From: Candidatus Eiseniibacteriota bacterium
GTDB taxonomy: Bacteria > Eisenbacteria > RBG-16-71-46 > JABDJR01
Direction of reading: 5' to 3'
Length of the DNA stretch: 64,000 bases
NCBI GenBank assembly: GCA_963783375.1
Contig: CAWANH010000028.1
Location: 1,088,001-1,152,000 of the forward strand
The notes beneath the pieces are model-generated. The model saw only the letters and a program-made list of their open reading frames with translations. It ran no database searches and was not told the origin of the DNA. Shown here piece by piece: positions 25,708-44,634 of this stretch. The position numbers and the translations under genes are program-made. How positions within the stretch are numbered: position 1 is the stretch's first letter; each line of letters opens with the position of its first letter.

Positions 25708-27402
25708 CTACTTCAGGATCACCATCCGCCGGGTGAGGCTCCTGGAGCCCCAGTTGAGCCGATAGAAGTAGACGCCGGCGCTCACCCTCGAACCATTCCG
25801 GTCCCGTCCGTTCCAGGTCACCGCGTAGTCGCCGCGGGGCTGGGGCTCGTCGACCAGGCGCCTGACCAGGCGCCCGCTGGCGTCGAACACGCTCAGATCC
25901 ACCGTCGAGGCCGGAGACCCCTCCGGAATCGCGTAGGTGATGATGGTCGTTGGCTTGAAGGGGTTGGGATGATTGGAACCCAGGACCAGCCCCGGCCGTC
26001 CGGGAGCCGTCTCTTCGTCGACCCCGGTGGCCTGAAGGTCCTGCAGCTTGCTCACGAAGATGGCGGCGGGGACGCCCACCGTCCCGGTGAAGTAGACGCC
26101 GCCCGCGTCGTCCACGACAATGCCGTTCCCGCGATTGGCCGAGCCGGAGTCGAGGCTGTGGGTGAAGTTCAGGATGCCGCCGTTCCCGCTCAGCTCACAA
26201 ACGACGATTTCCGCGCCGAAATCGATGTTCCCCGGGGGAAAATCGCCCGAGGTGGTGTATCCGGCCACGAAGGCGTTTCCCTGGCCATCGATGGCCACGC
26301 TCCGGGCCTCGTCCACGGTGGAACCGCCGATGAAGGTGCTCCAGATCAGCCCGGCCCCGGTGGTCGAGAGCTTGCTGACAAAGAAGTCCTCACAGTTGTA
26401 GTCGGCACCGAACGGCACCTCGCACCCGTTGACGGCGCCCACGAAGCCCTCCTGGAAGGCGCCCGGGGTGGTGGGAAAGTCCTCCGAGCGCGTGGGGCCG
26501 GCCAGGTAGACGTTCCCGGCCGCGTCCGCAACCATGTCGCCCAGCCGATCGATGTCCGAGCCTCCGACGTAGCTGCTGAAGAGCAACGTTCCTCCGTCCG
26601 CGGACAGCTTGCTGATGAAGAGGTCGTTCGGGGCGGTGTCGACGGCGTTCACCAGGGGAAAGTCCTGGGCGGTGGTATGACCGGCGACGATGATATTGCC
26701 GTCGGCATCCAGGGCGATGCGGTCGCCCCAGTCGTCCTCGGTCCCGCCAAAGTAGGTGCTGTAGAGGATTTCGTTCCCGCCGGCGGAGAGCTTGGTGATG
26801 AATGCGTCATGGTAGAAATACAGCGGAAAGCCGGGCCCGGGCTGATAGGCGTCCTCGGTCGTGGGAAAGTCGGTCGATCCGGCGACGCCGGTGAGGTAGA
26901 TCGCATCGGCGTCGTCGATGGCGATGCCGGATCCGGAATCGGAGTAGTCGCCGCCCAGGAACGTGCTGTAGAGGATGGTTCCGTCCGAGGAAGCGAGCTT
27001 CGTCAGAAAGACGTCCCGGAAGCCGGTGAGGGTACCATCCATGGGGTTCACGACCGGAAAGTCCGGGGAGTCCGTCCAGCCGGTCACCCAGAGATCCCCC
27101 TTGGAATCGAGGGCCAGGTCGGTGGCGTAGTCGTGGTCACTGCCCTCGATGTAGCGGTTCCAGAGCTCGTCGCCGGAGGCGTCCAGCTTGATGATCACCA
27201 CGTCCAGATGGACGCCGTCCGCATACGCGGAGCCGATGAGAAAGGCCGCACCTTCGTCGTCGACGACGAGCTTGCCGGCGTGGGGAAGCGTATATCCGGA
27301 AAGGAAGGTCTCGTACTCCACGCCCGGCGCCTGGGCGGAGGCGAGCCGGCTGAATGAAGACAATCCAAGAACGAGAGCGAGCAGGAGAATTTGGCGGCGC
27401 AT
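25708..27402 (-). CDS. Secreted SBBP beta-propeller repeat protein with C-terminal FlgD-Ig domain
   Basis: Repeats 'YSTFLGG..D....IA.D..G..Y..G.T.S.DFP'; C-terminal 'NHPNPF...FDASGRLVR...WNG...GVYFYRL'. Confidence 0.92.
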   Translation of the reverse strand: MRRQILLLALVLGLSSFSRLASAQAPGVEYETFLSGYTLPHAGKLVVDDEGAAFLIGSAYADGVHLDVVIIKLDASGDELWNRYIEGSDHDYATDLALDSKGDLWVTGWTDSPDFPVVNPMDGTLTGFRDVFLTKLASSDGTILYSTFLGGDYSDSGSGIAIDDADAIYLTGVAGSTDFPTTEDAYQPGPGFPLYFYHDAFITKLSAGGNEILYSTYFGGTEDDWGDRIALDADGNIIVAGHTTAQDFPLVNAVDTAPNDLFISKLSADGGTLLFSSYVGGSDIDRLGDMVADAAGNVYLAGPTRSEDFPTTPGAFQEGFVGAVNGCEVPFGADYNCEDFFVSKLSTTGAGLIWSTFIGGSTVDEARSVAIDGQGNAFVAGYTTSGDFPPGNIDFGAEIVVCELSGNGGILNFTHSLDSGSANRGNGIVVDDAGGVYFTGTVGVPAAIFVSKLQDLQATGVDEETAPGRPGLVLGSNHPNPFKPTTIITYAIPEGSPASTVDLSVFDASGRLVRRLVDEPQPRGDYAVTWNGRDRNGSRVSAGVYFYRLNWGSRSLTRRMVILK

Positions 27403-27660
27403 TTCCGCCTCCTTTCGCGATCCGGATGGTCGGGAACCCGGCCCATTCTGCCGAAGCGCGGTTCACGCGCCGGAGCCCGGCCTTCGAGGCTTCGCCCAGA
27501 GTACGCCCCCCTGGATCGGATGTGACCGGACTCTCCCCGGGGCCCGGAGAGACCGCGCCTGCCCATGTGATAGAATTCCCCGCCTCCCAGGAAACGATGC
27601 CGTTCGGCGTCGTCGACCGCCCCCGAACCGGCCTTGGGCCCCACCGGCCCGGCCGACGTC

Positions 27661-28494
27661 ATGAAGGTAGCGATGACCCCAGAATCCACGTCCGGAAACG
27701 TCCGGGAAACCCTCTCCGGCCCGGGCCTTCACGCCCAATGGCGGGACGACTACCGGACCGCGGCCAGCGACCGGTTCTACGACGCGGCGGTGGACCGGAT
27801 CGTGGGGATGATCGAGCCGCCGCCCGGCTCCACCCTCCTGGACGCCGGCTGCGGGGTGGGCATGGACACGATCCGACTGGCCCGCCGGGGCTACCGGGTG
27901 GTCGGCATGGATTTTTCGGAGAGCGCCCTGGGCATCGCGCGGCAGAACATCCTGTCGGCCGGAATGGCCGACCGGGTCGAGCTTCGGGCCGAGGACCTCA
28001 CCGCCCTCTCGTTCCCCGACGCCTCCTTCTCCTACATCCTCTGCTGGGGGGTGCTCATGCACATCCCCGAGGTGGAGAAGGCGCTGTCCGAGCTGGTCCG
28101 GGTGCTCAAACCGGGCGGGGCGCTGGTCCTGAGCGAGATCAACGTCCGCTCGGCCCAGCGGGTCGTCTTCCGGGCGATCCAGCGGCTCCGGGGAAAGGGC
28201 GGTGCGGGAATCCGCAAGACGCCGGCGGGAGTGGAGCACTGGTTCACCACCCCGGACGGAGAGCTGGTGGTGCGCCACACCGACATGGACTGGCTGGTCT
28301 CCGCGCTCGAACAGAGGGGGCTTGCCCTCCGAAAGCGCACCGCGGGGGAGTTCACCGAACTCTATTTGAAGACATCGTCCCCCCTCATGAAGCGGTTCAT
28401 CCACGGCTTCAACCTCTTCTGGTTCCGCGCCGTCCGCAATCCCCACCTGGCGTTCGGGAACATCCTGGTCTTCGAGAAGCCCGTCCAGGGCTGA
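27661..28494 (+). CDS. Class I SAM-dependent methyltransferase
   Basis: 'LLDAGCGVG', 'FPDASF', 'RVLKPGG'. Confidence 0.9.
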   Translation: MKVAMTPESTSGNVRETLSGPGLHAQWRDDYRTAASDRFYDAAVDRIVGMIEPPPGSTLLDAGCGVGMDTIRLARRGYRVVGMDFSESALGIARQNILSAGMADRVELRAEDLTALSFPDASFSYILCWGVLMHIPEVEKALSELVRVLKPGGALVLSEINVRSAQRVVFRAIQRLRGKGGAGIRKTPAGVEHWFTTPDGELVVRHTDMDWLVSALEQRGLALRKRTAGEFTELYLKTSSPLMKRFIHGFNLFWFRAVRNPHLAFGNILVFEKPVQG

Positions 28495-29013: not shown

Positions 29014-29871
29014 ATGAAGCGTCCTCTGATCATCATTTTCGGTGTCCTGGCCGTGGGCACCGCCCTCGCTTCGCCCTACTACGCCCTCCCCCTGGCCGGC
29101 CGGGTCCGTAGCCCCTTCCACCCCTGGCTCCGCCCCTCGGGCTACGTGGGGCAGTCCCTGGGCATCCTGGCCTTCCTGCTCTTTGCCTTCCTCTGGCTCT
29201 ATCCGATCCGGAAGCGCTTTCGCCGGCTGGCGTTCACCGGCACCATCCCCAGGTGGCTCAAGGTGCACGTGGTGGCGGGGCTGGTCGTTCCCTTCGTGGT
29301 GGCGATCCACGCGGGATGGCGCTTCAACGGGCTGGCCGGTCTGGCCTTCGCGGCCATGGTCATCGTGTGGTTGAGCGGCATCGTCGGACGCTACATCTAC
29401 GTTCGCATCCCCCGTGGGAAGTCCGGCCTCTCCCTCAGCGCGGAGGAGATCGGCGCCCACCGGGAGAGCCTGGTCGGGCGGATCTCCGCGGCGACCCGCC
29501 TCACCCCGGATCGGGTGCGCGAGCTCCTGGCCGTGGACAGCGGCTCCTACCGGGGCCTCGGGCTGGCGGGCACCTTGCGCCGCATGGTGGCCGACGATCT
29601 CACCCGGCGTCGCGCCGTCCGCACCCTTCGCCGTGAGCTGGCCAAGGGCTCGGGCGGCGGCCCCCAACTGGATCCCTCCACCCTGGGCGAGGTCCTCCGT
29701 TGCGTGCGGCAGGAGATCGCCCTCGGCCAGCAGATCCGCCTCCTCGAAGGCACCCAGCGCATCTTTCGGTTCTGGCACGCCGCCCACAAGCCGGTGGCGG
29801 TGACCGCGCTCCTGGCGGTGCTGATTCACGTCGCGGTGGTCGTGGCGGTGGGCAGCACCTGGTTCCGATAG
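29014..29871 (+). CDS. His-rich polytopic membrane protein, cytochrome b / ferric-reductase-like TM domain
   Basis: TM His residues in 'WLKVHVVAG', 'AIHAG', 'FWHAAHKP' and 'LIHV'; first gene of the cytochrome operon. Confidence 0.75.
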   Translation: MKRPLIIIFGVLAVGTALASPYYALPLAGRVRSPFHPWLRPSGYVGQSLGILAFLLFAFLWLYPIRKRFRRLAFTGTIPRWLKVHVVAGLVVPFVVAIHAGWRFNGLAGLAFAAMVIVWLSGIVGRYIYVRIPRGKSGLSLSAEEIGAHRESLVGRISAATRLTPDRVRELLAVDSGSYRGLGLAGTLRRMVADDLTRRRAVRTLRRELAKGSGGGPQLDPSTLGEVLRCVRQEIALGQQIRLLEGTQRIFRFWHAAHKPVAVTALLAVLIHVAVVVAVGSTWFR

Positions 29872-29880
29872 GGAACGACG

Positions 29881-31320
29881 ATGGAAGCACTTCTCACCGC
29901 CGTGGCGTTCCTGGTCGTGACTGCGGCCTCGGTGATCTGGCATCTCCGGCGGACGGGGGTGGCGGCGGGTCCCGCCGCCCCACCGGCCGGGCCCCCGTGC
30001 CCGCGCTGCCACGCCGCGGTGCCCGCCGAGGCCACGTTCTGCCCGGCCTGCGGCGTGCCCCGGCAGATCTTCGAGGTCGTCACCGCGCAGACCGTGGACC
30101 CCTCCGCCCCGAAGTCCAACCGCGGCGTTGACGGGCCTCTCCACGCCCTGGTGCGCGCGGACCGGTGCGTGGGGTGCGGGACCTGCGTGGCCGCCTGCCC
30201 GGAACCGGGAGCGATCGCTCTCAAGGGGAAGGTGGCGGTGGTGGACAAGAACGTCTGCGTGGGCCACGGGGAGTGCGTCCAGGCCTGCCCGGTCGGCGCG
30301 GTCTCCATGGCCGGAGGGGAGGCGGTCCAGCGGGTCGAGGTTCCGGAGGTCGACGCGGGTTTCCAGTCCAACGTGCGCGGTCTCTACATCGTGGGGGAGC
30401 TGGGGGGGCGCGGCCTCATCAAGAACGCGATCAACGAGGGGAAGATCGCCGCCGAGGACGTGGTGCGGGCGCTTCCTCCCGGGGAATCGCGCGCCGACGG
30501 CCGGGACGACGTCCTTGATCTGGTGGTGGTGGGGTCCGGTCCGGCCGGCCTCAGCGCCGGGTTGGAGGCCCACCGCACCGGTCTTCGCTACGCCGTGCTC
30601 GAACAGGGCACCCTGGCCGACACCATCCGCAAGTATCCGCGGCGAAAGCTCCTCCTGGCCGAACCGGTTCGTGTCCCGCTCTACGGCGATCTGTGGGTCT
30701 CGGATGCCTCCAAGGAGACCCTGCTCCAGGTCTGGGAAACCATCATCGCCAACACCGGCCTGAGCGTGCTCACCGAGCACCGCGTGGGGAACGTGCTTCG
30801 CGAGGGCGAACTCTTCCGCGTCACCACCGACCGGGGCGACTTCCTGACCCGGCGCGTGGTGCTCGCCCTCGGCCGTCGCGGCACGCCCCGGCGGCTCGGC
30901 GTTCCCGGCGAGGAGCTGGCCAAGGTGACCTACGACATCGTGGAGATGGAGGTGTTCGCGGGGCGGCGGGTCCTGGTGGTGGGTGGGGGAGACAGCGCGG
31001 TGGAGTCCGCGCTGGGTCTGGCCAACCAGCCGGGGACCGAGGTGTACCTCTCCTACCGGGGCGCTGAGCTTTCCCGCGTCAAGGAACGGAACCTGACGAA
31101 GCTGGACAAGGCGCTGGCCGCGGGCAAGGTGACCATGCTCTACGAAAGCCGGATCGTGGAGATCGGCGAGGGGGAGGTGATCCTGGACGTCGCGGGGGAG
31201 ACACGCCGACTCCCCAACGACCACGTCATCATCCGGATCGGGGGCGATCCCCCGTTCAGGTTTCTCGAGCGCATCGGGGTGCGGTTGGTCCAGAAGGACG
31301 TGCCGCTGGTCTCGGCTTGA
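29881..31320 (+). CDS. Membrane-anchored 2x[4Fe-4S] ferredoxin / FAD-NAD(P)H oxidoreductase (TrxR/YpdA-like)
   Basis: N-terminal TM helix; Zn ribbon; CVGCGTCVAACP and CVGHGECVQACP; GSGPAG; VGGGDSA. Confidence 0.88.
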   Translation: MEALLTAVAFLVVTAASVIWHLRRTGVAAGPAAPPAGPPCPRCHAAVPAEATFCPACGVPRQIFEVVTAQTVDPSAPKSNRGVDGPLHALVRADRCVGCGTCVAACPEPGAIALKGKVAVVDKNVCVGHGECVQACPVGAVSMAGGEAVQRVEVPEVDAGFQSNVRGLYIVGELGGRGLIKNAINEGKIAAEDVVRALPPGESRADGRDDVLDLVVVGSGPAGLSAGLEAHRTGLRYAVLEQGTLADTIRKYPRRKLLLAEPVRVPLYGDLWVSDASKETLLQVWETIIANTGLSVLTEHRVGNVLREGELFRVTTDRGDFLTRRVVLALGRRGTPRRLGVPGEELAKVTYDIVEMEVFAGRRVLVVGGGDSAVESALGLANQPGTEVYLSYRGAELSRVKERNLTKLDKALAAGKVTMLYESRIVEIGEGEVILDVAGETRRLPNDHVIIRIGGDPPFRFLERIGVRLVQKDVPLVSA

Positions 31321-33392
31321 CCGCGGGTCGATCGCGGACGCCCGCCGGTTTCGCGGCGGCCATTACCCTCATGGGGGTCTTGATGCTCCTGGGTTCGACA
31401 GTCCGGGTTTCGGCCCAGATCTCTCCCGGCGACCTCTCCCGGGAGCACCAGGATCTGAGCGGCCCGCTCAACTGCCTGAAGTGCCACGCCGGGAAGTCCG
31501 ACGCGATGGACGCGAACTGCCTCGCCTGTCACGCCGGGATCGCGCAGTTGAAGGAGAAGAACCTCGGGCTCCACTCCCGGACCGGCAAGGACCGGTGCGC
31601 TACCTGCCATCCCGAACATGCGGGCCGGGACTTCAAGCTCGTCGCGTGGGAGGGCGGATCGCCCGAGAAGTTCGACCACGGACGCACCGGCTGGACGCTC
31701 CAGGGCAAGCACGCGACCAAGGTTTGCCGGGATTGCCATCAGGCCAAGTACCGGACCTCACCGGTGACCCGGGTGATGAAACGGAAGGATCTCTCGGGGA
31801 GCTGGTTGGGTCTTGAGACCGCCTGCGCTTCGTGCCACGAGGACCTTCATCGCGGCGCCCTCGGAGGGGACTGCGCCCGGTGCCACGGCTTCGAGGCCTG
31901 GAAGCCGGCCGCCGCCTTCGACCACGCCGCCACCGCCTACCCCCTGACCGGAAAGCACGCGACCCTCGAGTGCGCCAAGTGCCACCTGGCCCCGGGTCTC
32001 GATCTGGCCCGGGACGGGAAGGGCCGGCCCATTCCCCTCTACAAACCGCTTCGCCACGACGAGTGCAGCGCCTGCCACCGCGATCCCCACGAGAACCGGC
32101 TCGGGCCCGCCTGCGGCAAATGCCACGTCACCGAGGGGTTCAAGAAAACGGCCGCGGGGGGGTTCGATCACGGGGTCACCCGGTACCCCCTGGCCGGCCG
32201 CCACGTCGGGCTGGAGTGCGCGAAGTGCCACGATCCGGTGAAGGCGTGGGGCAAGCGCCCGGCCTTTGCCCGCTGCGACGATTGCCACCGGGATCCCCAC
32301 GCCGGTGAGACCCGCCTGGCCGGAAAACCCGCGGATTGCGCGGCCTGCCACGCCGTCTCGGGGTTCCGCCCCTCGACCTACACCGTGGACCGCCATCGCG
32401 AAGCGGCCTACCCCCTGGAGGGAAAGCATCGCGGCGTGGAGTGTCGCGGGTGCCATCTCCTCAAGCCGGCGAAGGTGCCGGCGGAGAAGCTGGGAGCGGC
32501 GGGGATCCTCATGCGCCCCCGCTTCGCCACCTGCCGCGACTGCCACGCCGAAGCGCACGACGGCCAGCTCACCGGCCGCGCCGACGGCGGCGCCTGCCGG
32601 ACCTGCCACGCTCCCTCGGGCTGGAAACCGAGCCTCTTCACCGTATCGGACCACGCGACGCTCAAACTTGCGTTGGAAGGCAGGCACGAGGAGATCGCCT
32701 GCGCCGCGTGCCACGGCCCCCGCCGCCGCGATCTTCCGGTTCTTCCCGGCCCCGACACCACCGGGACCGCCGGCGTGATGTTGGCGTTGGGGAGCGGCGC
32801 GTGCGTGACCTGCCACGTCGACCCCCATTTCGGCCGCTATGATCGCCCCGCCGAGGCCTCGCCGCCGGGCGGTTGCCGCGCCTGCCATGCCGCCTCGACG
32901 TTCCGCCCCGCGACCGTCGGCGTGGAAACCCACCGGGAGTATTCCTTCCCCCTGGAAGGGGCGCATCGCGCGGTGCCGTGCACCGGTTGCCACCGGGAAC
33001 TCATGCGGCCGCCCCTGTCCTCGACCTTGGTCGGCGCGGGGGTGAAGCTCGTCCCCCTCCGGTTCAACCAGCACCGAAGCGCCTGCCGGGATTGCCACGA
33101 CGGGCCCCACGGGACGCAGTTCGCGGTTAGGGCGGACAAGGGGGCCTGCGGGACTTGCCACGGGGTCGACGCCTTCGCTCCCGCGGACCACTTCGACCAT
33201 GACCGGGACACGGCGTTCGGCCTCCGAGGCGCCCACGCGAAGGTGGCCTGCGCCGAATGCCATCCCTCACGGAAAGACGCGGACGGAGTGGAGCGGATCC
33301 GCTACCGCCCTACTCCCACCGAGTGCGAGAGCTGTCACCGGGGCGGTCGGCCCGGGACGGGGTCCCGCCGGAACGGGGGGGGCGGATCATGA
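31317..33392 (+). CDS. Multiheme cytochrome c, 23 CxxCH
   Basis: Signal peptide then 'QISPGDLS..H'; 23 CxxCH counted; repeated 'FDH...PL.G.H' His spacers. Confidence 0.95.
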   Translation: MTAGRSRTPAGFAAAITLMGVLMLLGSTVRVSAQISPGDLSREHQDLSGPLNCLKCHAGKSDAMDANCLACHAGIAQLKEKNLGLHSRTGKDRCATCHPEHAGRDFKLVAWEGGSPEKFDHGRTGWTLQGKHATKVCRDCHQAKYRTSPVTRVMKRKDLSGSWLGLETACASCHEDLHRGALGGDCARCHGFEAWKPAAAFDHAATAYPLTGKHATLECAKCHLAPGLDLARDGKGRPIPLYKPLRHDECSACHRDPHENRLGPACGKCHVTEGFKKTAAGGFDHGVTRYPLAGRHVGLECAKCHDPVKAWGKRPAFARCDDCHRDPHAGETRLAGKPADCAACHAVSGFRPSTYTVDRHREAAYPLEGKHRGVECRGCHLLKPAKVPAEKLGAAGILMRPRFATCRDCHAEAHDGQLTGRADGGACRTCHAPSGWKPSLFTVSDHATLKLALEGRHEEIACAACHGPRRRDLPVLPGPDTTGTAGVMLALGSGACVTCHVDPHFGRYDRPAEASPPGGCRACHAASTFRPATVGVETHREYSFPLEGAHRAVPCTGCHRELMRPPLSSTLVGAGVKLVPLRFNQHRSACRDCHDGPHGTQFAVRADKGACGTCHGVDAFAPADHFDHDRDTAFGLRGAHAKVACAECHPSRKDADGVERIRYRPTPTECESCHRGGRPGTGSRRNGGGGS

Positions 33393-36300
33393 GAGGGTGG
33401 AACGGGTTCCTGGCTCGTCTGTGGTCCCGGCGTCCTGGTTGGCGGCTCATCCGCCCGGGGTTTGTGCTGGTCGGCGTGTTCATCGTCTTCGGGGGAGGGA
33501 TGATCTGGGATGCGGTCGGAGCGGGGGCGGACGATGACGAGCCCAAGTACCCGCACGGGTCGTTCCAGGCGGAGTGCAGCATGTGCCACTCCTCGGAGGG
33601 ATGGAAACCGGCACAGATCGGCAAGCAGTTCAAACACGAGAAATACGGGATGCCTCTCGACGGGGCGCACGCCGAGACGCCGTGCCTGTCCTGTCACCGG
33701 TCCCTGGAATTCGCGGACAGCGGCACGCAGTGCGCCGAGTGCCACCAGGACGTGCACAACAGCGAGTTGGGAACGGAGTGCGCGGATTGCCACACCACCC
33801 GGAGCTTCGGGGATCGATCCCGGATGGAGGACCTCCATCAGCTCACCCGGCTGCCCCTGACCGGCGCGCATGCCACGCTGGACTGCGCGGATTGCCACGT
33901 GTCGCAGGCGAAAGGGAAGGGGACCTTCGCCGGGGTGGCGGCGGAATGCGCGTCGTGCCACCTGGCCCGCTACGAGGCCGTGGAGGATCCTCCCCATGAG
34001 GCAGACCACTTCTCAACGGAATGCTCCCTCTGCCACGGCACGTCGAGCTGGAACGGCGGCGCCTTCGAGGCGGCCGGCCTGACGGAGTTCGATCACGGGG
34101 CGACGCTGTTTCCCCTGACCGGGGCGCACACCCGAACGGAGTGCATGACGTGCCATGGGGGTGGGGTATACCGGGGGTTGAGCACGGAGTGCGCAACCTG
34201 CCACCAGTCCGACTACGACGGGACCACGGACCCGGATCATCAGGCCGCCGGGTATCCCTTGGAGTGTGCGAATTGTCACGGCACTGAGAGCTGGTCGGGA
34301 GCGGACTTCAATCACGATGAGACCGGGTTCCCGCTCACCGGGGCTCATGTGGTCCAGCAGTGCCAGAGCTGTCACGGGGGTGGGGTGTACCAGGGGCTGG
34401 GCACGAAGTGCGCGACCTGCCACCAGACCGACTACAATGGGACGACCGAACCGGTGCATAGCGCGGCCGGGTTCCCGGTCACCTGCCAGGACTGCCACAA
34501 CACGACCAACTGGGACGGCGCGACGTTCGACCACAGCACCCAGACCCAGTTCCCCCTCACCGGCGCGCACGTCGCCCAGCAGTGCCAGAGCTGCCACGGG
34601 GGTGGGGTGTACCAGGGGCTGGGCACGGAGTGCGCAACGTGCCACCAGGCGGACTACGATGGGACGACCGAGCCGGTTCACAGCGCGGCCGGGTTCCCGG
34701 TGACCTGCCAGGACTGCCACAACACGACGAACTGGGACGGGGCGACGTTCGATCACGACAGCCAGACCCAGTTCCCGTTGACCGGGGCGCACATCACCCA
34801 GCAGTGCCAGAGCTGTCACGGGGGTGGGGTGTACCAGGGGCTGGGCACGGAGTGCGCAACGTGCCACCAGGCGGACTACGATGGGACGACCGAGCCGGTG
34901 CACAGCGCGGCCGGGTTCCCGGTGACGTGCCAGAACTGCCACAACACGACCAGCTGGGACGGGGCGGTTTTCGATCACGATAGCCAGACCCAGTTCCCGC
35001 TCACCGGCGCGCACGTCGCCCAGCAGTGCCAGAGCTGCCACGGGGGTGGGGTGTACCAGGGGCTGGGCACGGAGTGCGCAACCTGCCACCAGGCGGACTA
35101 CGATGGGACGACCGAGCCGGTTCACAGCGCGGCCGGGTTCCCGGTGACCTGCCAGGACTGCCACAACACGACGAACTGGGACGGGGCGACGTTCGATCAC
35201 GACAGCCAGACCCAGTTCCCGTTGACCGGGGCGCACATCACCCAGCAGTGCCAGAGCTGTCACGGGGGTGGGGTGTACCAGGGGCTGGGCACGGAGTGCG
35301 CAACCTGCCACCAGGCGGACTACGATGGGACGACCGAGCCGGTGCACAGCGCGGCCGGGTTCCCGGTGACGTGCCAGAACTGCCACAACACGACCAGCTG
35401 GGACGGGGCGACGTTCGATCACGACAGCCAGACCCAGTTCCCGTTCACCGGGGCGCACATCGCCCAGCAGTGCCAGAGCTGCCACGGGGGTGGGGTGTAC
35501 CAGGGGCTGGGCACGGAGTGCGCAACCTGCCACCAGGCGGACTACGATGGGACGACCGAGCCGGTTCACAGCGCGGCCGGGTTCCCGGTGACCTGCCAGG
35601 ACTGCCACAACACGACGAACTGGGACGGGGCGACGTTCGATCACGACAGCCAGACCCAGTTCCCCCTCACCGGGGCGCATATCGCGGCTCAATGCCAGAG
35701 CTGCCACGGCGGCGGGGTGTACCAGGGGCTGGGCACGGAGTGCGCGACCTGCCACCAGGCCGACTACGACGGGACCACGGATCCACCTCACGACCCGGCC
35801 GGGTTCCCGGTGACCTGCCAGGACTGCCACAACACGACGAACTGGGACGGGGCGACGTTCGATCACGACAGCCAGACCCAGTTCCCGTTGACCGGGGCGC
35901 ACATCACCCAGCAGTGCCAGAGCTGTCACGGGGGTGGGGTGTACCAGGGGCTGGGCACGGAGTGCGCAACGTGCCACCAGGCGGACTACGATGGGACGAC
36001 CGAGCCGGTGCACAGCGCGGCCGGGTTCCCGGTGACGTGCCAGAACTGCCACAACACGACCAGCTGGGACGGGGCGGTTTTCGATCACGATAGCCAGACC
36101 CAGTTCCCGCTCACCGGCGCGCACGTCGCCCAGCAGTGCCAGAGCTGCCACGGGGGTGGGGTGTACCAGGGGCTGGGCACGGAGTGCGCAACCTGCCACC
36201 AGGCGGACTACGATGGGACGACCGAGCCGGTTCACAGCGCGGCCGGGTTCCCGGTGACCTGCCAGGACTGCCACAACACGACGAACTGGGACGGGGCGAC

Positions 36301-39193
36301 GTTCGATCACGACAGCCAGACCCAGTTCCCCCTCACCGGGGCGCATATCGCGGCTCAATGCCAGAGCTGCCACGGCGGCGGGGTGTACCAGGGGCTGGGC
36401 ACGGAGTGCGCAACCTGCCACCAGACCGACTACGACGGGACGACCGACCCGCCCCACGATCCGGCCGGGTTCCCGGTGACCTGCCAGGACTGCCACAACA
36501 CGACGAACTGGGACGGGGCGACGTTCGACCACGACACCCAGACCCAGTTCCCCCTCACCGGGGCGCACGTCGCCCAGCAGTGCCAGAGCTGCCACGGGGG
36601 TGGGGTGTACCAGGGGCTGGGCACGGAGTGCGCGACCTGCCACCAGTCCGACTACGACGGGACGACCGAGCCGGTTCACAGCGCGGCCGGGTTCCCGGTG
36701 ACCTGCCAGGACTGCCACAACACCACGACCTGGGACGGGGCGACGTTCGACCACAGCACCCAGACCCAGTTCCCCCTCACCGGCGCGCATGTCGCCCAGC
36801 AGTGCCAGAGCTGCCACGGGGGTGGGGTGTACCAGGGGCTGGGCACGGAGTGCGCAACCTGCCACCAGACCGACTACGACGGGACGACCGAACCGGTGCA
36901 CAGCGCGGCCGGGTTCCCGGTGACCTGCCAGGACTGTCACAACACCTCGGCCTGGGACGGCGCGACGTTCGACCACGATACCCAGACCCAGTTCCCGTTG
37001 ACCGGGGCGCACATCACCCAGCAGTGCCAGAGCTGTCACGGGGGTGGGGTGTACCAGGGGCTGAGCACCGAGTGCGCGACCTGCCACCAGACCGACTACG
37101 ACGGGACCACGGACCCGCCCCACGACCCGGCCGGGTTCCCGGTGACCTGCCAGGACTGCCACAACACGACGAACTGGGACGGGGCGACGTTCGACCACAG
37201 CACCCAGACCCAGTTCCCCCTCACCGGGGCGCACATCACCCAGCAGTGCCAGAGCTGCCACGGGGGTGGGGTGTACCAGGGGCTGGGCACCGAGTGCGCG
37301 ACCTGCCACCAGTCCGACTACGACGGGACCACGGACCCGCCTCACGACCCGGCCGGGTTCCCGGTGACCTGCCAGACTGCCACAACACGACGAACTGGGA
37401 CGGGGCGGACTTCGATCACGATACCCAGACCCAGTTCCCGTTGACCGGGGCGCACATCACCCAGCAGTGCCAGAGCTGCCACGGCGGCGGGGTGTACCAG
37501 GGGCTGGGCACGGAGTGCGCGACCTGCCACCAGACCGACTACGACGGGACGACCGACCCGGCCCACGATCCGGCTGGGTTCCCGGTGACCTGCCAGTCGT
37601 GCCACAACACGACGAACTGGGACGGGGCGACGTTCGACCACAGCACCCAGACCCAGTTCCCCCTCACCGGCGCGCACGTCGCCCAGCAGTGCCAGAGCTG
37701 CCACGGGGGTGGGGTGTACCAGGGGCTGGGCACGGAGTGCGCGACCTGCCACCAGTCCGACTACGACGGGACGACCGAGCCGGTTCACAGCGCGGCCGGG
37801 TTCCCGGTGACCTGTCAGGACTGCCACAACACGACGACCTGGGACGGGGCGGTTTTCGATCACGACAGCCAGACCCAGTTCCCGCTGACCGGGGCGCACA
37901 TCACCCAGCAGTGCCAGAGCTGCCACGGCGGCGGGGTGTACCAGGGGCTGGGCACGGAGTGCGCGACCTGCCACCAGGCCGACTACGACGGGACCACGGA
38001 CCCGGCCCACGACCCGGCCGGGTTCCCGGTGACCTGCCAGGACTGCCACAACACGACGAACTGGGACGGCGCGACGTTCGACCACAGCACCCAGACCCAG
38101 TTCCCGCTCACCGGGGCGCATCATCGCGGTCCAATGCCTGAGCTGCCACGGCGGCGGGGTGTACCAGGGGCTGGGCACCGAGTGCGCAACCTGCCACCAG
38201 ACCGACTACGACGGGACCACCGACCCGGTGCACAGCGCGGCCGGGTTCCCGGTGACCTGCCAGGACTGCCACAACACGACGACCTGGGACGGCGCGACGT
38301 TCGACCACAGCACCCAGACCCAGTTCCCGCTCACCGGGGCGCATCTCGCGGTCCAATGTCTGAGTTGCCACGGCGGCGGGGTGTACCAGGGGCTGGGCAC
38401 CGAGTGCGCAACCTGCCACCAGGCCGACTACGACGGGACGACCGAACCGGTCCACAGCGCGGCCGGGTTCCCGGTGACCTGCCAGAACTGCCACAACACC
38501 ACGACCTGGGACGGCGCGACGTTCGACCACAGCACCCAGACCCAGTTCCCGCTCACCGGGGCGCATCTCGCGGTCCAATGTCTGAGCTGCCACGGCGGCG
38601 GGGTGTACCAGGGGCTGGGCACCGAGTGCGCGACCTGCCACCAGACCGACTACAATGGGACGACCGAACCGGTGCATAGCGCGGCCGGGTTCCCGGTGAC
38701 CTGCCAGAACTGTCACAACACCTCGGCCTGGGACGGCGCGACGTTCGACCACAGCACCCAGACCCAGTTCCCCCTCACCGGCGCGCACGTCGCCCAGCAG
38801 TGCCAGAGTTGCCACGGGGGTGGGGTGTACCAGGGGCTGGGCACGGAGTGCGCGACCTGCCACCAGTCCGACTACGACGGGACGACCGAGCCGGTTCACA
38901 GCGCGGCCGGGTTCCCGGTCACCTGCCAGAACTGTCACAACACGACGACCTGGGACGGGGCCACCTTCGACCATGACGCATCGTTCTTCCCGATCTACTC
39001 GGGGAGTCATAGTGGACGATGGAGCGATTGCACCGACTGTCACACCAACAACACGAATTACACCGATTTCACCTGCCTGAGCTGCCATCCGCACGATGAC
39101 AAATCCAAGACCGATGGGGACCATCGGGGCAGATCCGGATACCAATACGACAGCCAGGCTTGTTATTCATGCCATCCCCGGGGGAGCCACTAA
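33389..39193 (+). CDS. Giant tandem-repeat multiheme cytochrome c (~1934 aa, 76 CxxCH after correcting a -1 at ~37375 and a +1 at ~38122)
   Basis: ATG at 33389 overlaps the upstream stop; ORF pieces 33257..37444, 36136..38679 (middle part) and 38159..39193 join into one repeat protein; stop overlaps the next ATG (TAATG). Confidence 0.9.
34325..38975 (+). repeat. Coding tandem repeat, 21 x 222 bp (74 aa, 3 CxxCH per unit)
   Basis: First Cys codon of each unit recurs at 34361+222n up to 38801 (offset by -1 between the two indels). Confidence 0.95.
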
Positions 39194-40821
39194 TGACTCG
39201 GTGGGCGAGCGCGGCGCTTACCGTGATCGCGACCGTGCTGGCCTGCCTGGGGGCGCCGTCCCCCGCCCCGGCTGCCGTCGACAACACCTCCATGGCCGAT
39301 AGCAGTGCCCACGTCACCTACGTCACCGGCGACTTGATCTATGTGGACGCGGGACGGCAGAGCGGCCTGGGGGAGGGTCTGGAGCTACAGGTCGAGCGGG
39401 ATGGGAAGGCGGTGGCCACGCTCAAGGTGGAGCACCTCTCCTCCCATCAGGCCTCGTGCTCCGTGATCGGAGATCCGGTCGAGGTGAAGATCGGGGATGT
39501 CGTCCGGTTCCGACCGGTTCCTGCCAAGACGACCGGCGAGAATCCGTCGCCGGCGGCGAGCCGGGCAAATCCCGGCCGGACCGGCTCGGTATCGACGATG
39601 CAGGCGCTCCGGGCCCTGGGTTTCCGGGGACGGGTCGGGGTCCGGTACCTCACCCTGATGGATCAGACCGGGTCCGGCGCCGGCTTCTCCCAGCCCGCGC
39701 TGGACCTCCGGGTGTCCGGGACCCGGATCAACGGGAGCGACCTGGACCTCTTGGTCGATGCCCGGGCGCGCCGTACCTACCGGACGGACGCGAACGGGGG
39801 GCAATCCAACGACGGACGGACCCGCTTCTATCGGCTGAGCCTCTCCCGCCGGGCCGAGGGCTCACCCCTGCGGCTGTCCCTGGGTCGGCAGGTATCCCCC
39901 GACCTGGCCTCGGTGAGCCTCTTCGACGGCCTCCTGGGGGAATACGCAAGACGATCCGTGGCCTTCGGGGTCTTCACCGGTACCCAACCCGATCCCAAGA
40001 CCTACGGCGCCTCGAGCGAAGTGTTCGAATATGGGGGCTATGCCCGGGTGCAGGGCGCGCAGGCCGGAGTGGGCCGTTGGGCGCTCACCGGAGGAGCCAT
40101 CCAATCGCTGGTGAGGGGAGCGGTGAACCGGGACTATCTCTTCCTACGCGGCCGGTACATGAACCGCCGGATGTTCGGGTACCTGACCCAGGAGATCGAC
40201 ATCAATCGCGGCTGGAAGGCGAAGGCCGGCGAACCCCTGCTGACCCCGACCAGCACCTACCTGAACCTCCGCTATCAGCCGGCACCGGCATTGAGTTTCA
40301 CCGCCGGCTTCGACAACCGCCGGAACGTCCGGCTCTATCGGGACCGCGATACGCCGGAGACGGTGTTCGACGACAGCTATCGCCGAGGGCTCCGGGGCGG
40401 GGTGAGCGTGCGCTTTCTGGACCGGTTCCGGGTTGGGGGAGACGCCGGGATCCGCGGCGGGGGCGGGAGCGGCGATTCGAAATCCTTCACCTTCACCACC
40501 CGCATCTCCCGGCTGTCTCCGCTGGCCGTCGATCTGAGCACCCGGCACACGCGCTACACCGGCCCACTCGCCGACGGCTGGCTGCACACGGTTCGGGCGG
40601 GCGGTTCGATCGGCAGGCGGAACCGACTGGAACTGCACGCGGGGGGGAAGCGGGAAGACCGGTTCACCGGACCCGAGACCTCGGCGCAGACGACGTGGCT
40701 CGGTGCCGACCTGGACCTCGGCATCGTGACCGGCTGGTACCTCCTTCTCTCGGGAGAGTCCACCCGGGGAGACGTCGAAAAGAACGACCAGGTCTACACC
40801 AGCTTGTCCTACCGGTTCTGA
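39193..40821 (+). CDS. Predicted outer-membrane beta-barrel protein with N-terminal FlgT-C-like domain
   Basis: Signal peptide; 'IYVDAGRQSGL..G'; alternating amphipathic strands; C-terminal beta-signal 'YTSLSYRF'. Confidence 0.8.
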   Translation: MTRWASAALTVIATVLACLGAPSPAPAAVDNTSMADSSAHVTYVTGDLIYVDAGRQSGLGEGLELQVERDGKAVATLKVEHLSSHQASCSVIGDPVEVKIGDVVRFRPVPAKTTGENPSPAASRANPGRTGSVSTMQALRALGFRGRVGVRYLTLMDQTGSGAGFSQPALDLRVSGTRINGSDLDLLVDARARRTYRTDANGGQSNDGRTRFYRLSLSRRAEGSPLRLSLGRQVSPDLASVSLFDGLLGEYARRSVAFGVFTGTQPDPKTYGASSEVFEYGGYARVQGAQAGVGRWALTGGAIQSLVRGAVNRDYLFLRGRYMNRRMFGYLTQEIDINRGWKAKAGEPLLTPTSTYLNLRYQPAPALSFTAGFDNRRNVRLYRDRDTPETVFDDSYRRGLRGGVSVRFLDRFRVGGDAGIRGGGGSGDSKSFTFTTRISRLSPLAVDLSTRHTRYTGPLADGWLHTVRAGGSIGRRNRLELHAGGKREDRFTGPETSAQTTWLGADLDLGIVTGWYLLLSGESTRGDVEKNDQVYTSLSYRF

Positions 40822-40845: not shown

Positions 40846-41337
40846 TCAGCGCACCTCGATGAGGACGGTTTCCCCGTCCACGCGCACCGGGTAGGGATGA
40901 ATGGGCCCGCCGGCGGGGCCGTCGAGCACCCTCCCCTCGTAATCGAAGAGGGACTTTCCCACGCTGCAGCACTGGAGGACCGGACCGTTCACGCAAGGGT
41001 CCAGCTTTCGCCCCCCGTGCGCGCAGCGGTTCTCGAATGCGTGATACCCGCCGTCGATCCCGTGGATGAGGAGCACCGGCGCCGGGAGCATCGGGCCCTC
41101 GATCCGGACCGCCCCGGCCCTCCGGTTCAGCTCCGAAATCCGGGTCACGTCCACCCGGATCGTGCCGTCGGCGAAGGCCCAGGAATCGGCATCGGCCGGG
41201 GGCTCGGTGGCGGGGATGCCGAAGATGCGCTGGAAGAGGTTTCTCCGGACGCAACTGATGGCGACGGGAGAGGGCGGATCGGCATTCGGCCCCTTGTCCG
41301 TCGCGCGTCGCTCAGCGATCAGGGGTTCCTTCATCAT
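40846..41337 (-). CDS. Rieske-fold [2Fe-2S] protein with atypical second ligand box
   Basis: 'NRCAHGG...QCCSVGKSLFDYEG.V..GPA...YPV'. Confidence 0.8.
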   Translation of the reverse strand: MMKEPLIAERRATDKGPNADPPSPVAISCVRRNLFQRIFGIPATEPPADADSWAFADGTIRVDVTRISELNRRAGAVRIEGPMLPAPVLLIHGIDGGYHAFENRCAHGGRKLDPCVNGPVLQCCSVGKSLFDYEGRVLDGPAGGPIHPYPVRVDGETVLIEVR

Positions 41338-41572
41338 CGTCCCATCCTCCGTGCCATGGGGGTTTCGGGGGTGGCGGACCATGACCGTCAACCGCGGGAC
41401 GCCGGTGATCCGGGCGTGAACCCGCGCGTCGAAGGTACTCCACCACCGACGCCGGCGCAAAACGAATTCGATAACAAAGTTGTTTTGCGATCGTGTTTGT
41501 CCGATGAGCTGATCCAGGATCACCGACCGCGCCGCCGCCGAACAACCGGTCCCCGGGGAAACCGCGCGGCGA

Positions 41573-43129
41573 TCAGGAGGTGGGAAACACAACCCGACAG
41601 AGGCGGCTTCCCGACGCCCTCCGGATCAGGGTGAGGGCGGCGCCATCCTCCTCCAGACGGCGAATCAGCCATCGGGGCCGGGTCTCGTAGGTCCAGAAGC
41701 TCCGGTGGGCAAGGATGAAGGGCCGGTAGTCGGGGACGTCCAGGTCGACCACTTCCCCGACGATGCTGAGATTTCGCTCCGCAGTGTCGTCACCGGTGTA
41801 CTGAAGCGCCGCCTCGGGATCGTTGAGGTAGACCAAGCGATCGGCGATCGCCCGGGGCAGGTAGTGGCGGGCCTGGATGAACGCGTGCGGGTCGCCGACG
41901 GCGACCGGCGTTGGAGTCTCGGGGAGTGTGAGCAGAAGCGGATGCATGGCCAGCACGGCCGCCCGGGGGTCCTTGGGCGCCGCGACCGCCCTTCCCGCAT
42001 CCTTCAGCACCGCGAGGGAGATCATGAGGAGCAAGAGGACCGCCGTGGTCGTGCCTCCGCGCGAGAGCCGGCGGACCGCGATGGTGAAGAACACCGACAG
42101 TCCGATGATTGCCGGGATCCCGTACCGGAAGGTGTAGGTGCCGGTTTCGGCCATGGCGGTGAGTACCGCCGCCGCCGGGATGAGGACGAATCCACCGAGC
42201 GCGGCCAGCTCATGCGGGTTAAACCCGCCGCGCTTCGTTCGGGAGGGGATCGGCGGGTCGGAGCGGGTGAGCCGCAGGACGCCCACCACGATCGTCACCG
42301 CGACGAGGGTGACCAGGGCGGGACGGAGGAGCATTCCGTAGGTGCCGAGGATCTGCTCGGGGTGCGGGGGGGCCCAGGAGTGGGCGAAGAGCCGGGTCCG
42401 AACCGCCCGGATCACCGGAAGGAGCGGGATGAACGCGGCGAAGGGAAGAACCAGGGCCGCCGCGATCGCGCCGTCGAGCCGGCGCCGCTCCATCGTCCGC
42501 GCGAGTTCGCCCGACCCCAGGGCCACGATCGCGAAGACCGCGTAGTAGTGATTGGCTATGCCCAGAAAGAGGCCCAGGAAGAGCCCGGCCAGGCCGAGGC
42601 GCCGATGCCTGCCGGTGGCCGCTTCCTGCCAGGACAGGAGGGCGAGCCCGGCCAGGCCGAGCAGGATGCCATAGGGACGGGCCTCGTAGGCGTAGGGGTA
42701 GGCGCCGGTCTTGAGCAGGAAGAGAACCGTGATGAACCCGTAGATCGTTCCCAGGCGGCGGCGCGTGAAGGCGAAGAGGGCGAGCAGAAACGTGCCGAAG
42801 CCGAGCCATGCCGGGACCCGGACCGCGACCTCGCCGTCGCCGAGGGTCGCGTGAACGGCGTGGAGCAGGAACGCATGGAGCGGGGGGGCTCCGTCGACCC
42901 CGGCCAGAGACGCGCGCCACACCGCGGAGATGGAGGGGAGGCCGGCCACATAGAGAGCAATGATCTCGTCGTTCCAGAAGGGCTTCGCCGCCGCCCGAAG
43001 GACGGTGGTCAGCGTGTAGAGGAGGAGAAGCGCCGCCACCAGGGCCCCGGCGTGCCGCTCGACGAAGTCCGCCACCCGGTCCGCGGCGCGATTCAGGGTT
43101 CCGGTCCGACCGGGCGGGATTGCGTGCAT
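41573..43129 (-). CDS. GT-C fold (family 39-like) membrane glycosyltransferase
   Basis: 'FWNDE', 'PPLH', 'EARPYG', 'HYY'; many TM helices. Confidence 0.85.
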   Translation of the reverse strand: MHAIPPGRTGTLNRAADRVADFVERHAGALVAALLLLYTLTTVLRAAAKPFWNDEIIALYVAGLPSISAVWRASLAGVDGAPPLHAFLLHAVHATLGDGEVAVRVPAWLGFGTFLLALFAFTRRRLGTIYGFITVLFLLKTGAYPYAYEARPYGILLGLAGLALLSWQEAATGRHRRLGLAGLFLGLFLGIANHYYAVFAIVALGSGELARTMERRRLDGAIAAALVLPFAAFIPLLPVIRAVRTRLFAHSWAPPHPEQILGTYGMLLRPALVTLVAVTIVVGVLRLTRSDPPIPSRTKRGGFNPHELAALGGFVLIPAAAVLTAMAETGTYTFRYGIPAIIGLSVFFTIAVRRLSRGGTTTAVLLLLMISLAVLKDAGRAVAAPKDPRAAVLAMHPLLLTLPETPTPVAVGDPHAFIQARHYLPRAIADRLVYLNDPEAALQYTGDDTAERNLSIVGEVVDLDVPDYRPFILAHRSFWTYETRPRWLIRRLEEDGAALTLIRRASGSRLCRVVFPTS

Positions 43130-43135
43130 CGTGGC

Positions 43136-44236
43136 TCACCGTCCCAGGTAATCGGCCACCATGTCTCCCCACTCCGGGGCCTGGATCGTCCGCAGGAGGG
43201 CGCGGTTGATCGGCTCGCGGAGCGGGCTTCCCTCGGGGAGCACGATGGCGTAGTCCTGGCGCTCGAAGGTTCCGGGGAGAACCCGGATCCGGCCCGGCCA
43301 GTTCCTCTGGGAGAGATATTTGAGGAGCGGGACATCGTACACCACCGCGTCCATCTCGCCGCGGGCCAGGGCGCCCAGGGCATCCTCCACCGTGGGGTAC
43401 CCGTGAAATCGCACGTGATGGCCCTCCAGGTACCGGGCGCTGGTGGTGGCGGGGACCGTTCCCACCGCGACATGGACGAGATCCTCGGGGCCCCGGATGC
43501 GCGATTCGAGATGAGAGACGGTCAGCGACGACGCGATGGCCGCGGTGAAGCTCGAGATCACGATGATGGCCACGAACATCCAGATCAAGCCCACGATTCG
43601 CCCGCCGACGGTAGCCGGCGCCTTGTCGCCGTAGCCCACCGTGGTCATGGTGACCGCGGCCCACCAGAAACCCGAGGCCAGGCCGGACCGCGCGCCGCCC
43701 CCGAAGTGGTCCGGGTTCCGGCGCCGCTCGAAGAGCCAGGCCAGGAATCCCGCGACGAAGAGCAGGAGCGCCAGGAGCCCCACGACCTTCAGGAAGTTCA
43801 GGGAGAGAATCCCGCGGGCCGCGCTCAGGAAACCGCCCGGCCTTTCGGGGACCGCGATGCCGAGGCCGGTGGTGAAGTAGGGGTGGCTGAAGTCCAGGGT
43901 GTCTTCGCGTCCGGCGGTCACCGTGACCGCGGCGATCGCCACGTCGAGGCTCCCCGACGACACCCCCTGGAGGAGTCCCTGGAGATCCTTCTGCTCCCGG
44001 ATGGTGCTGGTGAAGCCCAGATCGGCCTCGATCTTCCGCCACAGGTCGAAGCTGATCCCCGTCCACGTTCCGTCCGCGCTCTTCATGGAGAAGGGTGGGG
44101 TCGCCTTGGTGCCCACCACGAGCCGCGACGGGACGCGGGAATCGCCGGCGGAAGGGGCGGCGGCGGCCGCGCCGGCCAGGAGCAGCGATGCCGCCAGCCC
44201 GAGGATCGTGGCGCGCGCGTAGCGTGAATGTTCCAT
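43136..44236 (-). CDS. GluR0-like ligand-gated K+ channel (split substrate-binding domain around a 2TM pore)
   Basis: Signal peptide; 'PPFSM', 'DFSHPYF'; filter 'TMTTVGYGD'; S2 segment 'DAVVYDVPLLKY'. Confidence 0.92.
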   Translation of the reverse strand: MEHSRYARATILGLAASLLLAGAAAAAPSAGDSRVPSRLVVGTKATPPFSMKSADGTWTGISFDLWRKIEADLGFTSTIREQKDLQGLLQGVSSGSLDVAIAAVTVTAGREDTLDFSHPYFTTGLGIAVPERPGGFLSAARGILSLNFLKVVGLLALLLFVAGFLAWLFERRRNPDHFGGGARSGLASGFWWAAVTMTTVGYGDKAPATVGGRIVGLIWMFVAIIVISSFTAAIASSLTVSHLESRIRGPEDLVHVAVGTVPATTSARYLEGHHVRFHGYPTVEDALGALARGEMDAVVYDVPLLKYLSQRNWPGRIRVLPGTFERQDYAIVLPEGSPLREPINRALLRTIQAPEWGDMVADYLGR

Positions 44237-44628: not shown

Positions 44629-44634
44629 GGGACG

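What the first reader, a model, noticed from the sequence alone, without database searches (positions are those of the whole stretch)
29014..40821. Candidate self-contained NAD(P)H-to-cell-surface electron conduit operon (~99 c-type hemes)
Seen: five co-oriented genes, three junctions overlapping (TTGA, ATGA, TAATG) and one with a 9-bp gap. They encode a His-rich membrane protein, a TM-anchored FeS/FAD/NAD(P)H reductase, a 23-CxxCH cytochrome, a 76-CxxCH cytochrome and a protein ending in the beta-signal YRF. Established: porin-cytochrome conduits such as MtrCAB draw electrons from quinol through NapC/NirT-type or similar quinol oxidases. Inference: this operon has no NapC/NirT, NrfD or bc-type gene and instead carries a cytoplasmic pyridine-nucleotide module, so it may link NAD(P)H directly to an extracellular acceptor or donor. 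Direction of flow cannot be read from sequence.
Basis: partly seen in the sequence, partly recalled or inferred. Interest (0 to 1): 0.93.

Follow-up and report, generated by a model that had tools for sequence, protein, structure and literature searches.

The report
NAD(P)H-fed giant heme wire operon
Five tightly packed genes, found together in many soil and sediment bacteria, encode what is likely a wire of up to 99 hemes that would carry electrons from cytoplasmic NAD(P)H across both cell membranes; it is a variant of the predicted but untested "PCC3" conduits, and its largest gene is broken by two frameshifts in this assembly.

Summary
The operon is real and conserved. One correction: the "76-heme" gene lies in three reading frames (51+9+15 motifs, one more destroyed at a break) because of two one-base indels, probably assembly errors (not proven). 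The membrane protein has four invariant His in two W-x3-H-x13-H helices plus SGxxG, the exact signature of the PCC3/PCC4 inner-membrane protein (He 2017). So the operon does have a cytochrome-b-like gene, and its layout is known. The last gene folds as a 22-strand barrel (pLDDT 89). The added part is a membrane-anchored, circularly permuted YpdA/TrxR-like FAD/Fe-S enzyme with an NADPH-type motif and no CxxC. It co-occurs with the membrane protein in 69 of 72 carrier genomes of the phylum sample, but at least two acidobacterial clusters lack it. The first cytochrome is fixed at 20 or 23 hemes; the second varies from 13 to 85 in steps of three. Best reading: an outward NAD(P)H-to-surface conduit that bypasses quinone and would spend, not make, membrane potential (0.5). 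A cultured carrier exists (Emticicia oligotrophica DSM 17448 plasmid). The scan noted this system before in at least eight other genomes.

The parts
29014..29871 (+). Inner-membrane protein, 285 aa, five hydrophobic helices, predicted di-heme b (W81-H85/H99, S121-G-x-x-G125, W254-H258/H272), 125-aa cytoplasmic loop
   Evidence: weak sub-threshold hits to DUF4405, Ferric_reduct, Ni_hydr_CYTB in 31, 24, 22 of 72 homologues
29881..31320 (+). Membrane-anchored flavoprotein, 479 aa: N-terminal helix, Zn ribbon, two Fe-S motifs (second with His129 for Cys), circularly permuted YpdA/TrxR-like FAD/NAD(P)H domains, no redox CxxC, NADPH-type GGGDSA and YR..R.K.R
31317..33392 (+). 23-heme c-type cytochrome, cleavable signal peptide (A-Q-ISPG), 26 further His, net basic; likely periplasm-spanning
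33389..39193 (+). Repeat cytochrome of 74-aa tri-heme units; broken in the assembly into 51+9+15 CxxCH; 76 motifs and about 1934 aa if read through; signal peptide, no lipobox, strongly acidic
37372..37378 (+). One-base loss (repeat unit of 221 instead of 222 nt) inside a CxxCH codon run; leads to the stop at 37442
38119..38125 (+). One-base gain (repeat unit of 223 nt) that restores the original frame
39193..40821 (+). Outer-membrane protein: signal peptide, small N-terminal beta domain (weakly FlgT_C-like), 22-strand beta-barrel ending YRF

Best explanation
The operon encodes a PCC3-like porin-cytochrome conduit that is likely fed from cytoplasmic NAD(P)H: the anchored flavoprotein would pass electrons through FAD and its Fe-S clusters to the two predicted b hemes of the membrane protein, then along the 23-heme cytochrome and the variable-length repeat cytochrome, which is predicted to reach the outside through the 22-strand barrel. 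Shown: gene set, motifs, barrel model, tight linkage. Inferred: cofactor binding, NADPH preference, contact between flavoprotein and membrane protein, contact of cytochromes with the barrel, surface exposure, direction. Flow is most likely outward. Electrons leaving the negative side of the membrane are helped by the membrane potential and use it up (own reasoning, as for NOX), so the system would be a low-potential reductase or redox valve for insoluble acceptors (Fe/Mn oxides, humics, partner cells) and not an energy-conserving respiratory step.
For: Four His invariant in all rows that cover them (72/72, 72/72, 72/72, 64/64), spaced H-x13-H on helices 3 and 5; loop charges put H85/H258 at the cytoplasmic and H99/H272 at the periplasmic face. 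FRD proteins with this His pattern couple a cytosolic reductase to an outside acceptor, and MsrQ takes electrons from NADH via Fre, not from ubiquinone (PMC12525009). Flavoprotein is closest to YpdA/Bdr (E 3e-45) and TrxR-type FNRs, has no CxxC, and has invariant G368-G-G-D-x-A373 and R393. Membrane gene lies directly upstream in 76 of 76 loci with room for it. In an independent phylum sample 72 of 201 genomes have the membrane protein, 70 the flavoprotein, 69 both, 66 of these within 12 kb (hand count). Linkage survives gene-order shuffling and holds in Bacteroidota. A distant membrane-protein subfamily sits beside a different YpdA-like Fe-S flavoprotein in 4 loci. Barrel model pLDDT 88.9, 22 strands. 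First cytochrome fixed at 23 (39) or 20 (8) hemes; second 13-61, 42 of 47 of the form 3n+1. Genome has two CcmC/F-family loci and PntB.
Against: At least two acidobacterial genomes (G339, G370) carry membrane protein + cytochromes + barrel on long contigs with no flavoprotein orthologue; 5 of 22 strong acidobacterial carriers lack one, so the wire can exist without it. He 2017 proposed the same membrane-protein type to be quinone-active, and MsrQ also binds quinone. Neither cytochrome has a lipobox, so surface location is unproven. No genuine fusion of the two proteins was found. The genome has other candidate quinol oxidases that could act in trans. No flanking gene points to an acceptor. No member has been tested.
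Confidence: 0.5

Rival explanations
1. Classical PCC3 model: the membrane protein is a quinol oxidase or quinone reductase linking the wire to the menaquinone pool; the flavoprotein is an add-on that feeds the same b hemes or the quinone pool, or has a side role.
For: Proposed for this protein type by He 2017; four-gene PCC3 in Sideroxydans has no flavoprotein listed; flavoprotein-less clusters exist among homologues; H-x13-H pairs also occur in bc1 cytochrome b; weak Ni_hydr_CYTB hits.
Against: Near-obligate linkage to the flavoprotein in the phylum sample and a second pairing with another NAD(P)H flavoprotein; in MsrQ ubiquinone was found not to be the donor.
Confidence: 0.27
2. The cytochromes stay in the periplasm as an electron store or as a reductase for solutes that enter through the barrel; there is no true extracellular wire.
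For: Both cytochromes have cleavable signal peptides and no lipid anchor; barrel resembles generic 22-strand transporters more than MtrB (Z 18.5 vs 14.2); a carrier is Emticicia, recalled as an aerobe with no known metal respiration; free change of heme number (13-85) suits a capacitor.
Against: At about 1 nm per heme (MtrA figure quoted) 76 hemes make 60-75 nm, far more than a periplasm is wide (recalled about 20-25 nm); the fixed 20/23-heme partner fits that width; the barrel gene is always kept (57 of 57 loci long enough).
Confidence: 0.15
3. The conduit takes electrons in from an extracellular donor and reduces NAD(P)+ directly.
For: PCC3 was described in Fe(II) oxidisers and is transcribed in Sideroxydans CL21; TrxR-type FNRs can run toward NADP+ (recalled).
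Against: Electrons would have to enter against the membrane potential and reach about -320 mV, needing a donor below roughly -0.45 V (own estimate from recalled values); Fe(II) and reduced humics do not reach that.
Confidence: 0.06

Closest known systems
PCC3 predicted porin-cytochrome complex (He et al. 2017, PMC5566968; Hoover et al. 2023, PMC10734462; PMC12442390)
   Same: Barrel (22 strands, as in L. cholodnii), about 21-24-heme periplasmic cytochrome, repeat cytochrome of variable and very high heme number (10-85 reported), about 25-27 residues per heme, about 300-aa five-helix membrane protein with SGXXG and two WX3HX13H motifs; function untested.
   Different: Extra membrane-anchored Fe-S/FAD NAD(P)H enzyme; found here in Ca. 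Eisenbacteria, Gemmatimonadota, Acidobacteriota, Krumholzibacteria and Bacteroidota records rather than Proteobacteria; sequence homology to the Sideroxydans/Leptothrix proteins could not be tested.
PCC4 and porin-less MHC-IMP clusters (He 2017, Suppl. Table 6); PCC group 1 of PMC13264449 (2026)
   Same: H-x13-H membrane protein next to another redox protein; the 2026 paper reports a ferredoxin-NADP+ reductase gene beside 7 of 11 porin-cytochrome clusters and suggests functional coupling.
   Different: Those have 4-10-heme or large decaheme cytochromes; the redox partner is unnamed (2017) or only a Prokka label (2026); no mechanism is given. They probably correspond to the sister family seen here in L121-L124 (inferred from sizes, not tested).
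Ferric-reductase-domain systems NOX, STEAP, MsrQ-Fre
   Same: Cytosolic NAD(P)H reductase passing electrons across the membrane through His-ligated b hemes to an outside acceptor.
   Different: Five helices instead of six; below the Ferric_reduct cut-off; TrxR-type instead of FNR-fold reductase; acceptor would be a multiheme wire.
YpdA/Bdr and TrxR-type ferredoxin-NADP+ reductases (PDB 7A7B, 7A76, 3AB1)
   Same: FAD and NADPH domains, no CxxC.
   Different: Circularly permuted, fused to TM anchor, Zn ribbon and ferredoxin; 164 bits against a 339.9 cut-off for TIGR04018.
MtrCAB (PDB 6R2Q)
   Same: Barrel plus two multiheme cytochromes as a general design.
   Different: No decaheme MtrA/MtrC orthologues, smaller barrel, no lipoprotein cytochrome, no CymA in the cluster.

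Membership tests
PCC3 | Outer-membrane beta-barrel of about 20-42 strands in the cluster | tested here: met
   22 strands, pLDDT 88.9; definition
PCC3 | Periplasmic multiheme cytochrome with about 21 hemes and low residue-to-heme ratio | tested here: met
   23 CxxCH, cleavable signal peptide, median 27 aa per heme in homologues
PCC3 | Second, repeat-built cytochrome with variable, high heme number | tested here: met
   74-aa repeats; 51 hemes in frame, 76 read through; 13-85 in homologues
PCC3 | Second cytochrome is extracellular | not testable with these tools
   Signal peptide without lipobox; no localisation tool
PCC3 | About 300-aa five-helix membrane protein with SGXXG on helix 4 and WX3HX13H on helices 3 and 5 | tested here: met
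   285 aa; all motifs present and conserved; 89 of 103 full-length distant representatives have both WX3HX13H
PCC3 | Sequence homology to the Sideroxydans/Leptothrix PCC3 proteins | tested here: inconclusive
   Those sequences could not be fetched; no proteobacterial name appeared among listed hits, which show only the top of a family of 3523 clusters
MtrCAB/MtoAB | DmsE/MtrA decaheme | tested here: not met
   TIGR03508 82.7 bits against cut-off 192.2; 23 and 51+ hemes
MtrCAB/MtoAB | MtrB/PioB family porin | tested here: inconclusive
   PF11854 only weak in 2 of 55 homologues; MtrB rank 29, Z 14.2, rmsd 5.4, 341 aligned, among generic barrels
Ferric reductase domain (NOX/MsrQ) | Two bis-His pairs, one per membrane face | tested here: met
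   (sequence and charge topology; no structure model)
Ferric reductase domain (NOX/MsrQ) | Six helices and PF01794 above cut-off | tested here: not met
   Five hydrophobic segments; 13.2 bits against 28
YpdA/Bdr bacillithiol disulfide reductase | TIGR04018 above cut-off, unpermuted stand-alone enzyme | tested here: not met
   164.1 against 339.9; permuted
Thioredoxin reductase | Redox CxxC before the NADPH-binding motif | tested here: not met
   D352-I-V-E355 at that place; position of the motif recalled

The most novel reading that the evidence does not exclude
A widespread, quinone-independent class of extracellular electron transfer: a NOX-like module driven by the membrane potential exports NADPH electrons at very low potential into a single-polypeptide heme nanowire whose length (13-85 hemes, here 76, about 60-75 nm) is tuned by tandem triheme repeats and which threads out through its own barrel, letting ordinary heterotrophs, aerobes included, reduce crystalline oxides, humics or partner cells.
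Probability: 0.3. Interest if true: 0.85.

Novelty: new variant of a known kind. Interest (0 to 1): 0.57.

Why it matters
Known Gram-negative porin-cytochrome conduits are fed from quinol. A conduit fed from NAD(P)H would reach acceptors of lower potential and would mean that about a third of the sampled genomes of this uncultured phylum (72 of 201), plus many Gemmatimonadota, Acidobacteriota and some Bacteroidota, can exchange electrons with minerals or cells by a route that current marker sets do not name. It also bears on the open question of what the PCC3 membrane protein does. The intact copy on a plasmid of a cultured strain makes both questions testable.

Tried and rejected
Single-sequence fold of the barrel failed (pLDDT 32); the alignment-based one worked. 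Complex prediction of membrane protein with flavoprotein gave no answer (score 0.10); it is not evidence either way. No structure model of the membrane protein was made; PDB sequence search found no relative, nor for the repeat unit. Proof that the two indels are errors was not obtained: no contig bridged 37375; two X1 contigs crossing 38122 both lack one base but carry 3-4 other differences and may come from other repeat copies; the G020 comparison was too distant (94% identity; 26 clean one-base indels in 215 kb, 15 in homopolymers). No RNA holder listed. Fusion of the two proteins: the two longer hits and P0268, P0335 look like N-terminal extensions or frameshift read-throughs; rejected. 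A sixth conserved gene: none; the largest flank family is in 10 of 81 loci. No sigma-70 promoter match upstream. The CPRCH motif in the flavoprotein is part of the Zn ribbon, not counted as heme. Acidity of the repeat cytochrome is not general (median -0.15 per heme), so not used. Paper searches that found no description of this five-gene set; subscription journals and most figure content are outside them, and He 2017 Tables 3-5 and Fig. S4 and the supplements of PMC13264449 could not be read, so a prior mention is not excluded.

Full report
Observation. The fourth gene is not one frame. Its 21 intervals between FP[LF]TGAH anchors are 222 nt in 18 cases, 219 in the first, and 221 and 223 once each. 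The 221 and 223 units hold a one-base loss near 37375 and a one-base gain near 38122. As assembled there are 51 motifs up to a stop at 37442, 9 in another frame and 15 back in the first frame. Read through with X at the breaks, the protein has about 1934 residues, 76 motifs and 79 further His, which fits bis-His hemes. The breaks are probably assembly errors: they are single bases in a near-perfect repeat, 47 of 55 homologous loci have two intact cytochrome genes, and a COX1 gene on the same contig is also split. Short-read contigs did not settle it, nor did a 94%-identical relative.

Host. The genome is 4.73 Mb, 69% GC, 97% complete. The closest named relatives of the flavoprotein are records titled Candidatus Eisenbacteria (73% and 68% identity). 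Runs holding near-identical DNA are soil and salt-marsh metagenomes. The genome has 41 frames with two or more CxxCH, cytochrome c assembly genes, a NapC-like protein, four NrfD matches, heme-copper oxidases and transhydrogenase PntB.

Membrane protein. It has no Pfam or NCBIfam hit. In 72 homologues H85, H99 and H258 are invariant, and H272 is present in all 64 rows that reach it; W81 (71 of 72), W254 and S121-G-x-x-G125 are conserved. Hydropathy gives five segments; the 64-82 loop carries six K/R and the long 128-253 loop follows helix 4, which puts H85/H258 near the cytoplasm and H99/H272 near the periplasm (positive-inside rule recalled). Weak hits go to DUF4405, Ferric_reduct and Ni_hydr_CYTB. 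He et al. 2017 (PMC5566968; passages, section 16, supplements 1, 5, 7 read) define the PCC3/PCC4 inner-membrane protein by exactly these features and propose a quinone-active di-heme b protein. The family is large: 373 clusters at E<=1e-30 and 3523 at 1e-3.

Flavoprotein. Domains are an N-terminal helix, Zn ribbon, two Fe-S motifs and Pyr_redox_3. The second Fe-S motif has His129 in 69 of 72 rows. Closest solved relatives are YpdA/Bdr, then TrxR and TrxR-type FNR. The fold is circularly permuted: profile positions 151-193 match the C-terminal end (291-333) of an unpermuted relative whose start matches 202-465. There is no CxxC; GGGDSA and R393/R399/K401/R403 are conserved, which by recalled motif rules points to NADPH. 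This is the build of a one-electron NAD(P)H:ferredoxin-type reductase tethered to the membrane.

Cytochromes and barrel. Both cytochromes have cleavable signal peptides and no lipobox in the window and in the homologues shown. Among 47 loci with two intact genes (8 of 55 set aside as broken or ambiguous), the first has 23 hemes in 39 and 20 in 8; the second has 13-61, and 42 of 47 are 3n+1. More distant loci reach 68 and 85; He 2017 also reports 85, so 76 is not a record. With MtrA at about 10 nm for ten hemes, 20-23 hemes would span a periplasm and 76 would not fit across one. The last protein folds with pLDDT 88.9 as a small N-terminal beta domain plus 22 strands. Fold searches return only generic outer-membrane barrels.

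Co-occurrence. Of 80 loci found with the flavoprotein (best 80 of 83), 76 have the membrane gene directly upstream and the other 4 end within 70 bases; 57 reach the barrel gene, the other 23 end within 5.4 kb; 55 of 57 keep the order. Titles include Gemmatimonadota, Eisenbacteria, Acidobacteriota and Krumholzibacteria. In a sample of 201 genomes of the own phylum, 72 have the membrane protein and 70 the flavoprotein; 69 have both, 66 within 12 kb and 3 on separate contigs (hand count; kin are not independent). Presence is patchy: a 98%-complete genome of the same genus has no match. The pair stays together when gene order changes (a few of these loci overlap the first set). In 201 genomes of the phylum of G204 (its locus is titled Acidobacteriota), 17 of 22 strong carriers have the flavoprotein; G339 and G370 have membrane protein, cytochromes and barrel without it. 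A distant subfamily sits beside an unpermuted YpdA-like, cNMP-binding, Fe-S protein of about 800 aa and two decahemes (4 loci). No sixth gene is conserved. The whole set, preceded by ccsA, lies on plasmid pEMTOL02 of Emticicia oligotrophica DSM 17448 (23 and 40 hemes; all five proteins match).

Mechanism. The simplest chain is NAD(P)H, FAD, Fe-S, inner heme b, outer heme b, 23-heme cytochrome, repeat cytochrome in or through the barrel. MsrQ is the precedent for a separate cytosolic reductase feeding such a membrane protein; PMC12525009 (abstract and introduction read) reports NADH/Fre as donor and ubiquinone as not the donor. Energetics, from my own knowledge: electrons moved outward leave the negative side, so the potential helps and is spent; inward reduction of NAD(P)+ would need a donor below about -0.45 V. 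I therefore favour outward, non-conserving flow (0.5). The quinol model (0.27) is kept alive by the flavoprotein-less clusters and by He 2017; a periplasmic store (0.15) by the missing lipid anchors. The complex prediction gave no answer.

Relation to what is known. It meets the four published architectural features of PCC3 that could be tested; homology to the proteobacterial type proteins was not testable. PCC3 is described with four genes and remains functionally unverified (PMC12442390 and PMC10734462, passages). He 2017 notes unnamed redox partners for PCC4 and porin-less clusters, and PMC13264449 (passages) notes a ferredoxin-NADP+ reductase gene beside 7 of 11 decaheme porin-cytochrome clusters, so a pyridine-nucleotide link has been hinted at in print for a sister type. 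I found no paper on this five-gene set (searches listed under Tried and rejected). PMC7399161, PMC8258643, PMC2825233 (passages) and PMC6295460 (one part) gave nothing specific. The scan's notes show the same system in eight other genomes with the same reading; my PCC3 search and my recorded reading came before I saw them.

Verdict. A real, widespread, untested variant of PCC3 with a conserved NAD(P)H input module; this copy has an unusually long, assembly-broken repeat cytochrome. New variant of a known kind, interest 0.57.

Noticed in passing
L098:9564-12020 (own genome, C28:1529563-1532019, +): Paralogue with the same permuted FAD/NAD(P)H module fused to a multi-helix membrane domain with Fer4_5 and a C-terminal ferredoxin: a natural fusion of this module to a membrane partner.
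   Followed up: partly
L099/L100 (own genome, C29:1455490-1481909): Second large multiheme cluster (11, 6, 10, 42, 6, 6, 4, 6 CxxCH) with a NapC-like protein, next to thioredoxin reductase and pntB.
   Followed up: partly
own genome C1:131513-148389 and C13:483-20395: Two near-identical NrfD + multiheme clusters (same scores), possibly an assembly duplicate.
   Followed up: no
L121-L124: Sister system: distant H-x13-H membrane protein between a Pyr_redox_3/two cNMP/Fe-S protein and an FHA-bearing decaheme, with a 1200-1400 aa LVIVD decaheme nearby; suggests a regulated NAD(P)H-linked conduit.
   Followed up: partly
L084:10762-16977 and L089:3955-8946: Homologous repeat cytochromes with 85 and 68 CxxCH in one open frame.
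   Followed up: no
L081:11767-23565: Complete cluster with ccsA on a plasmid of cultured Emticicia oligotrophica DSM 17448; the only match among 72,556 plasmid records.
   Followed up: yes
window 33389-39193 and 31317-33392: Repeat cytochrome is very acidic (208 D+E, 28 K+R), the 23-heme one basic (95 K+R, 72 D+E); the basic charge is general, the acidity is not.
   Followed up: partly
window 40846-45765: Downstream: Rieske-domain protein (40846-41592, -), PMT-type glycosyltransferase, glutamate-receptor-like ion channel (43136-44296, -), and 44635-45765 (+), which looks like a VIT1/CCC1 iron transporter (recalled motif, not tested).
   Followed up: no
window 57449-58594 (+): Separate 7-CxxCH frame of 381 aa.
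   Followed up: no
window 20948-28494: Upstream: AnmK, GH3 and a SpoIID-like frame (label recalled), an SBBP/FlgD-Ig protein and a SAM methyltransferase; none recurs beside homologues.
   Followed up: partly
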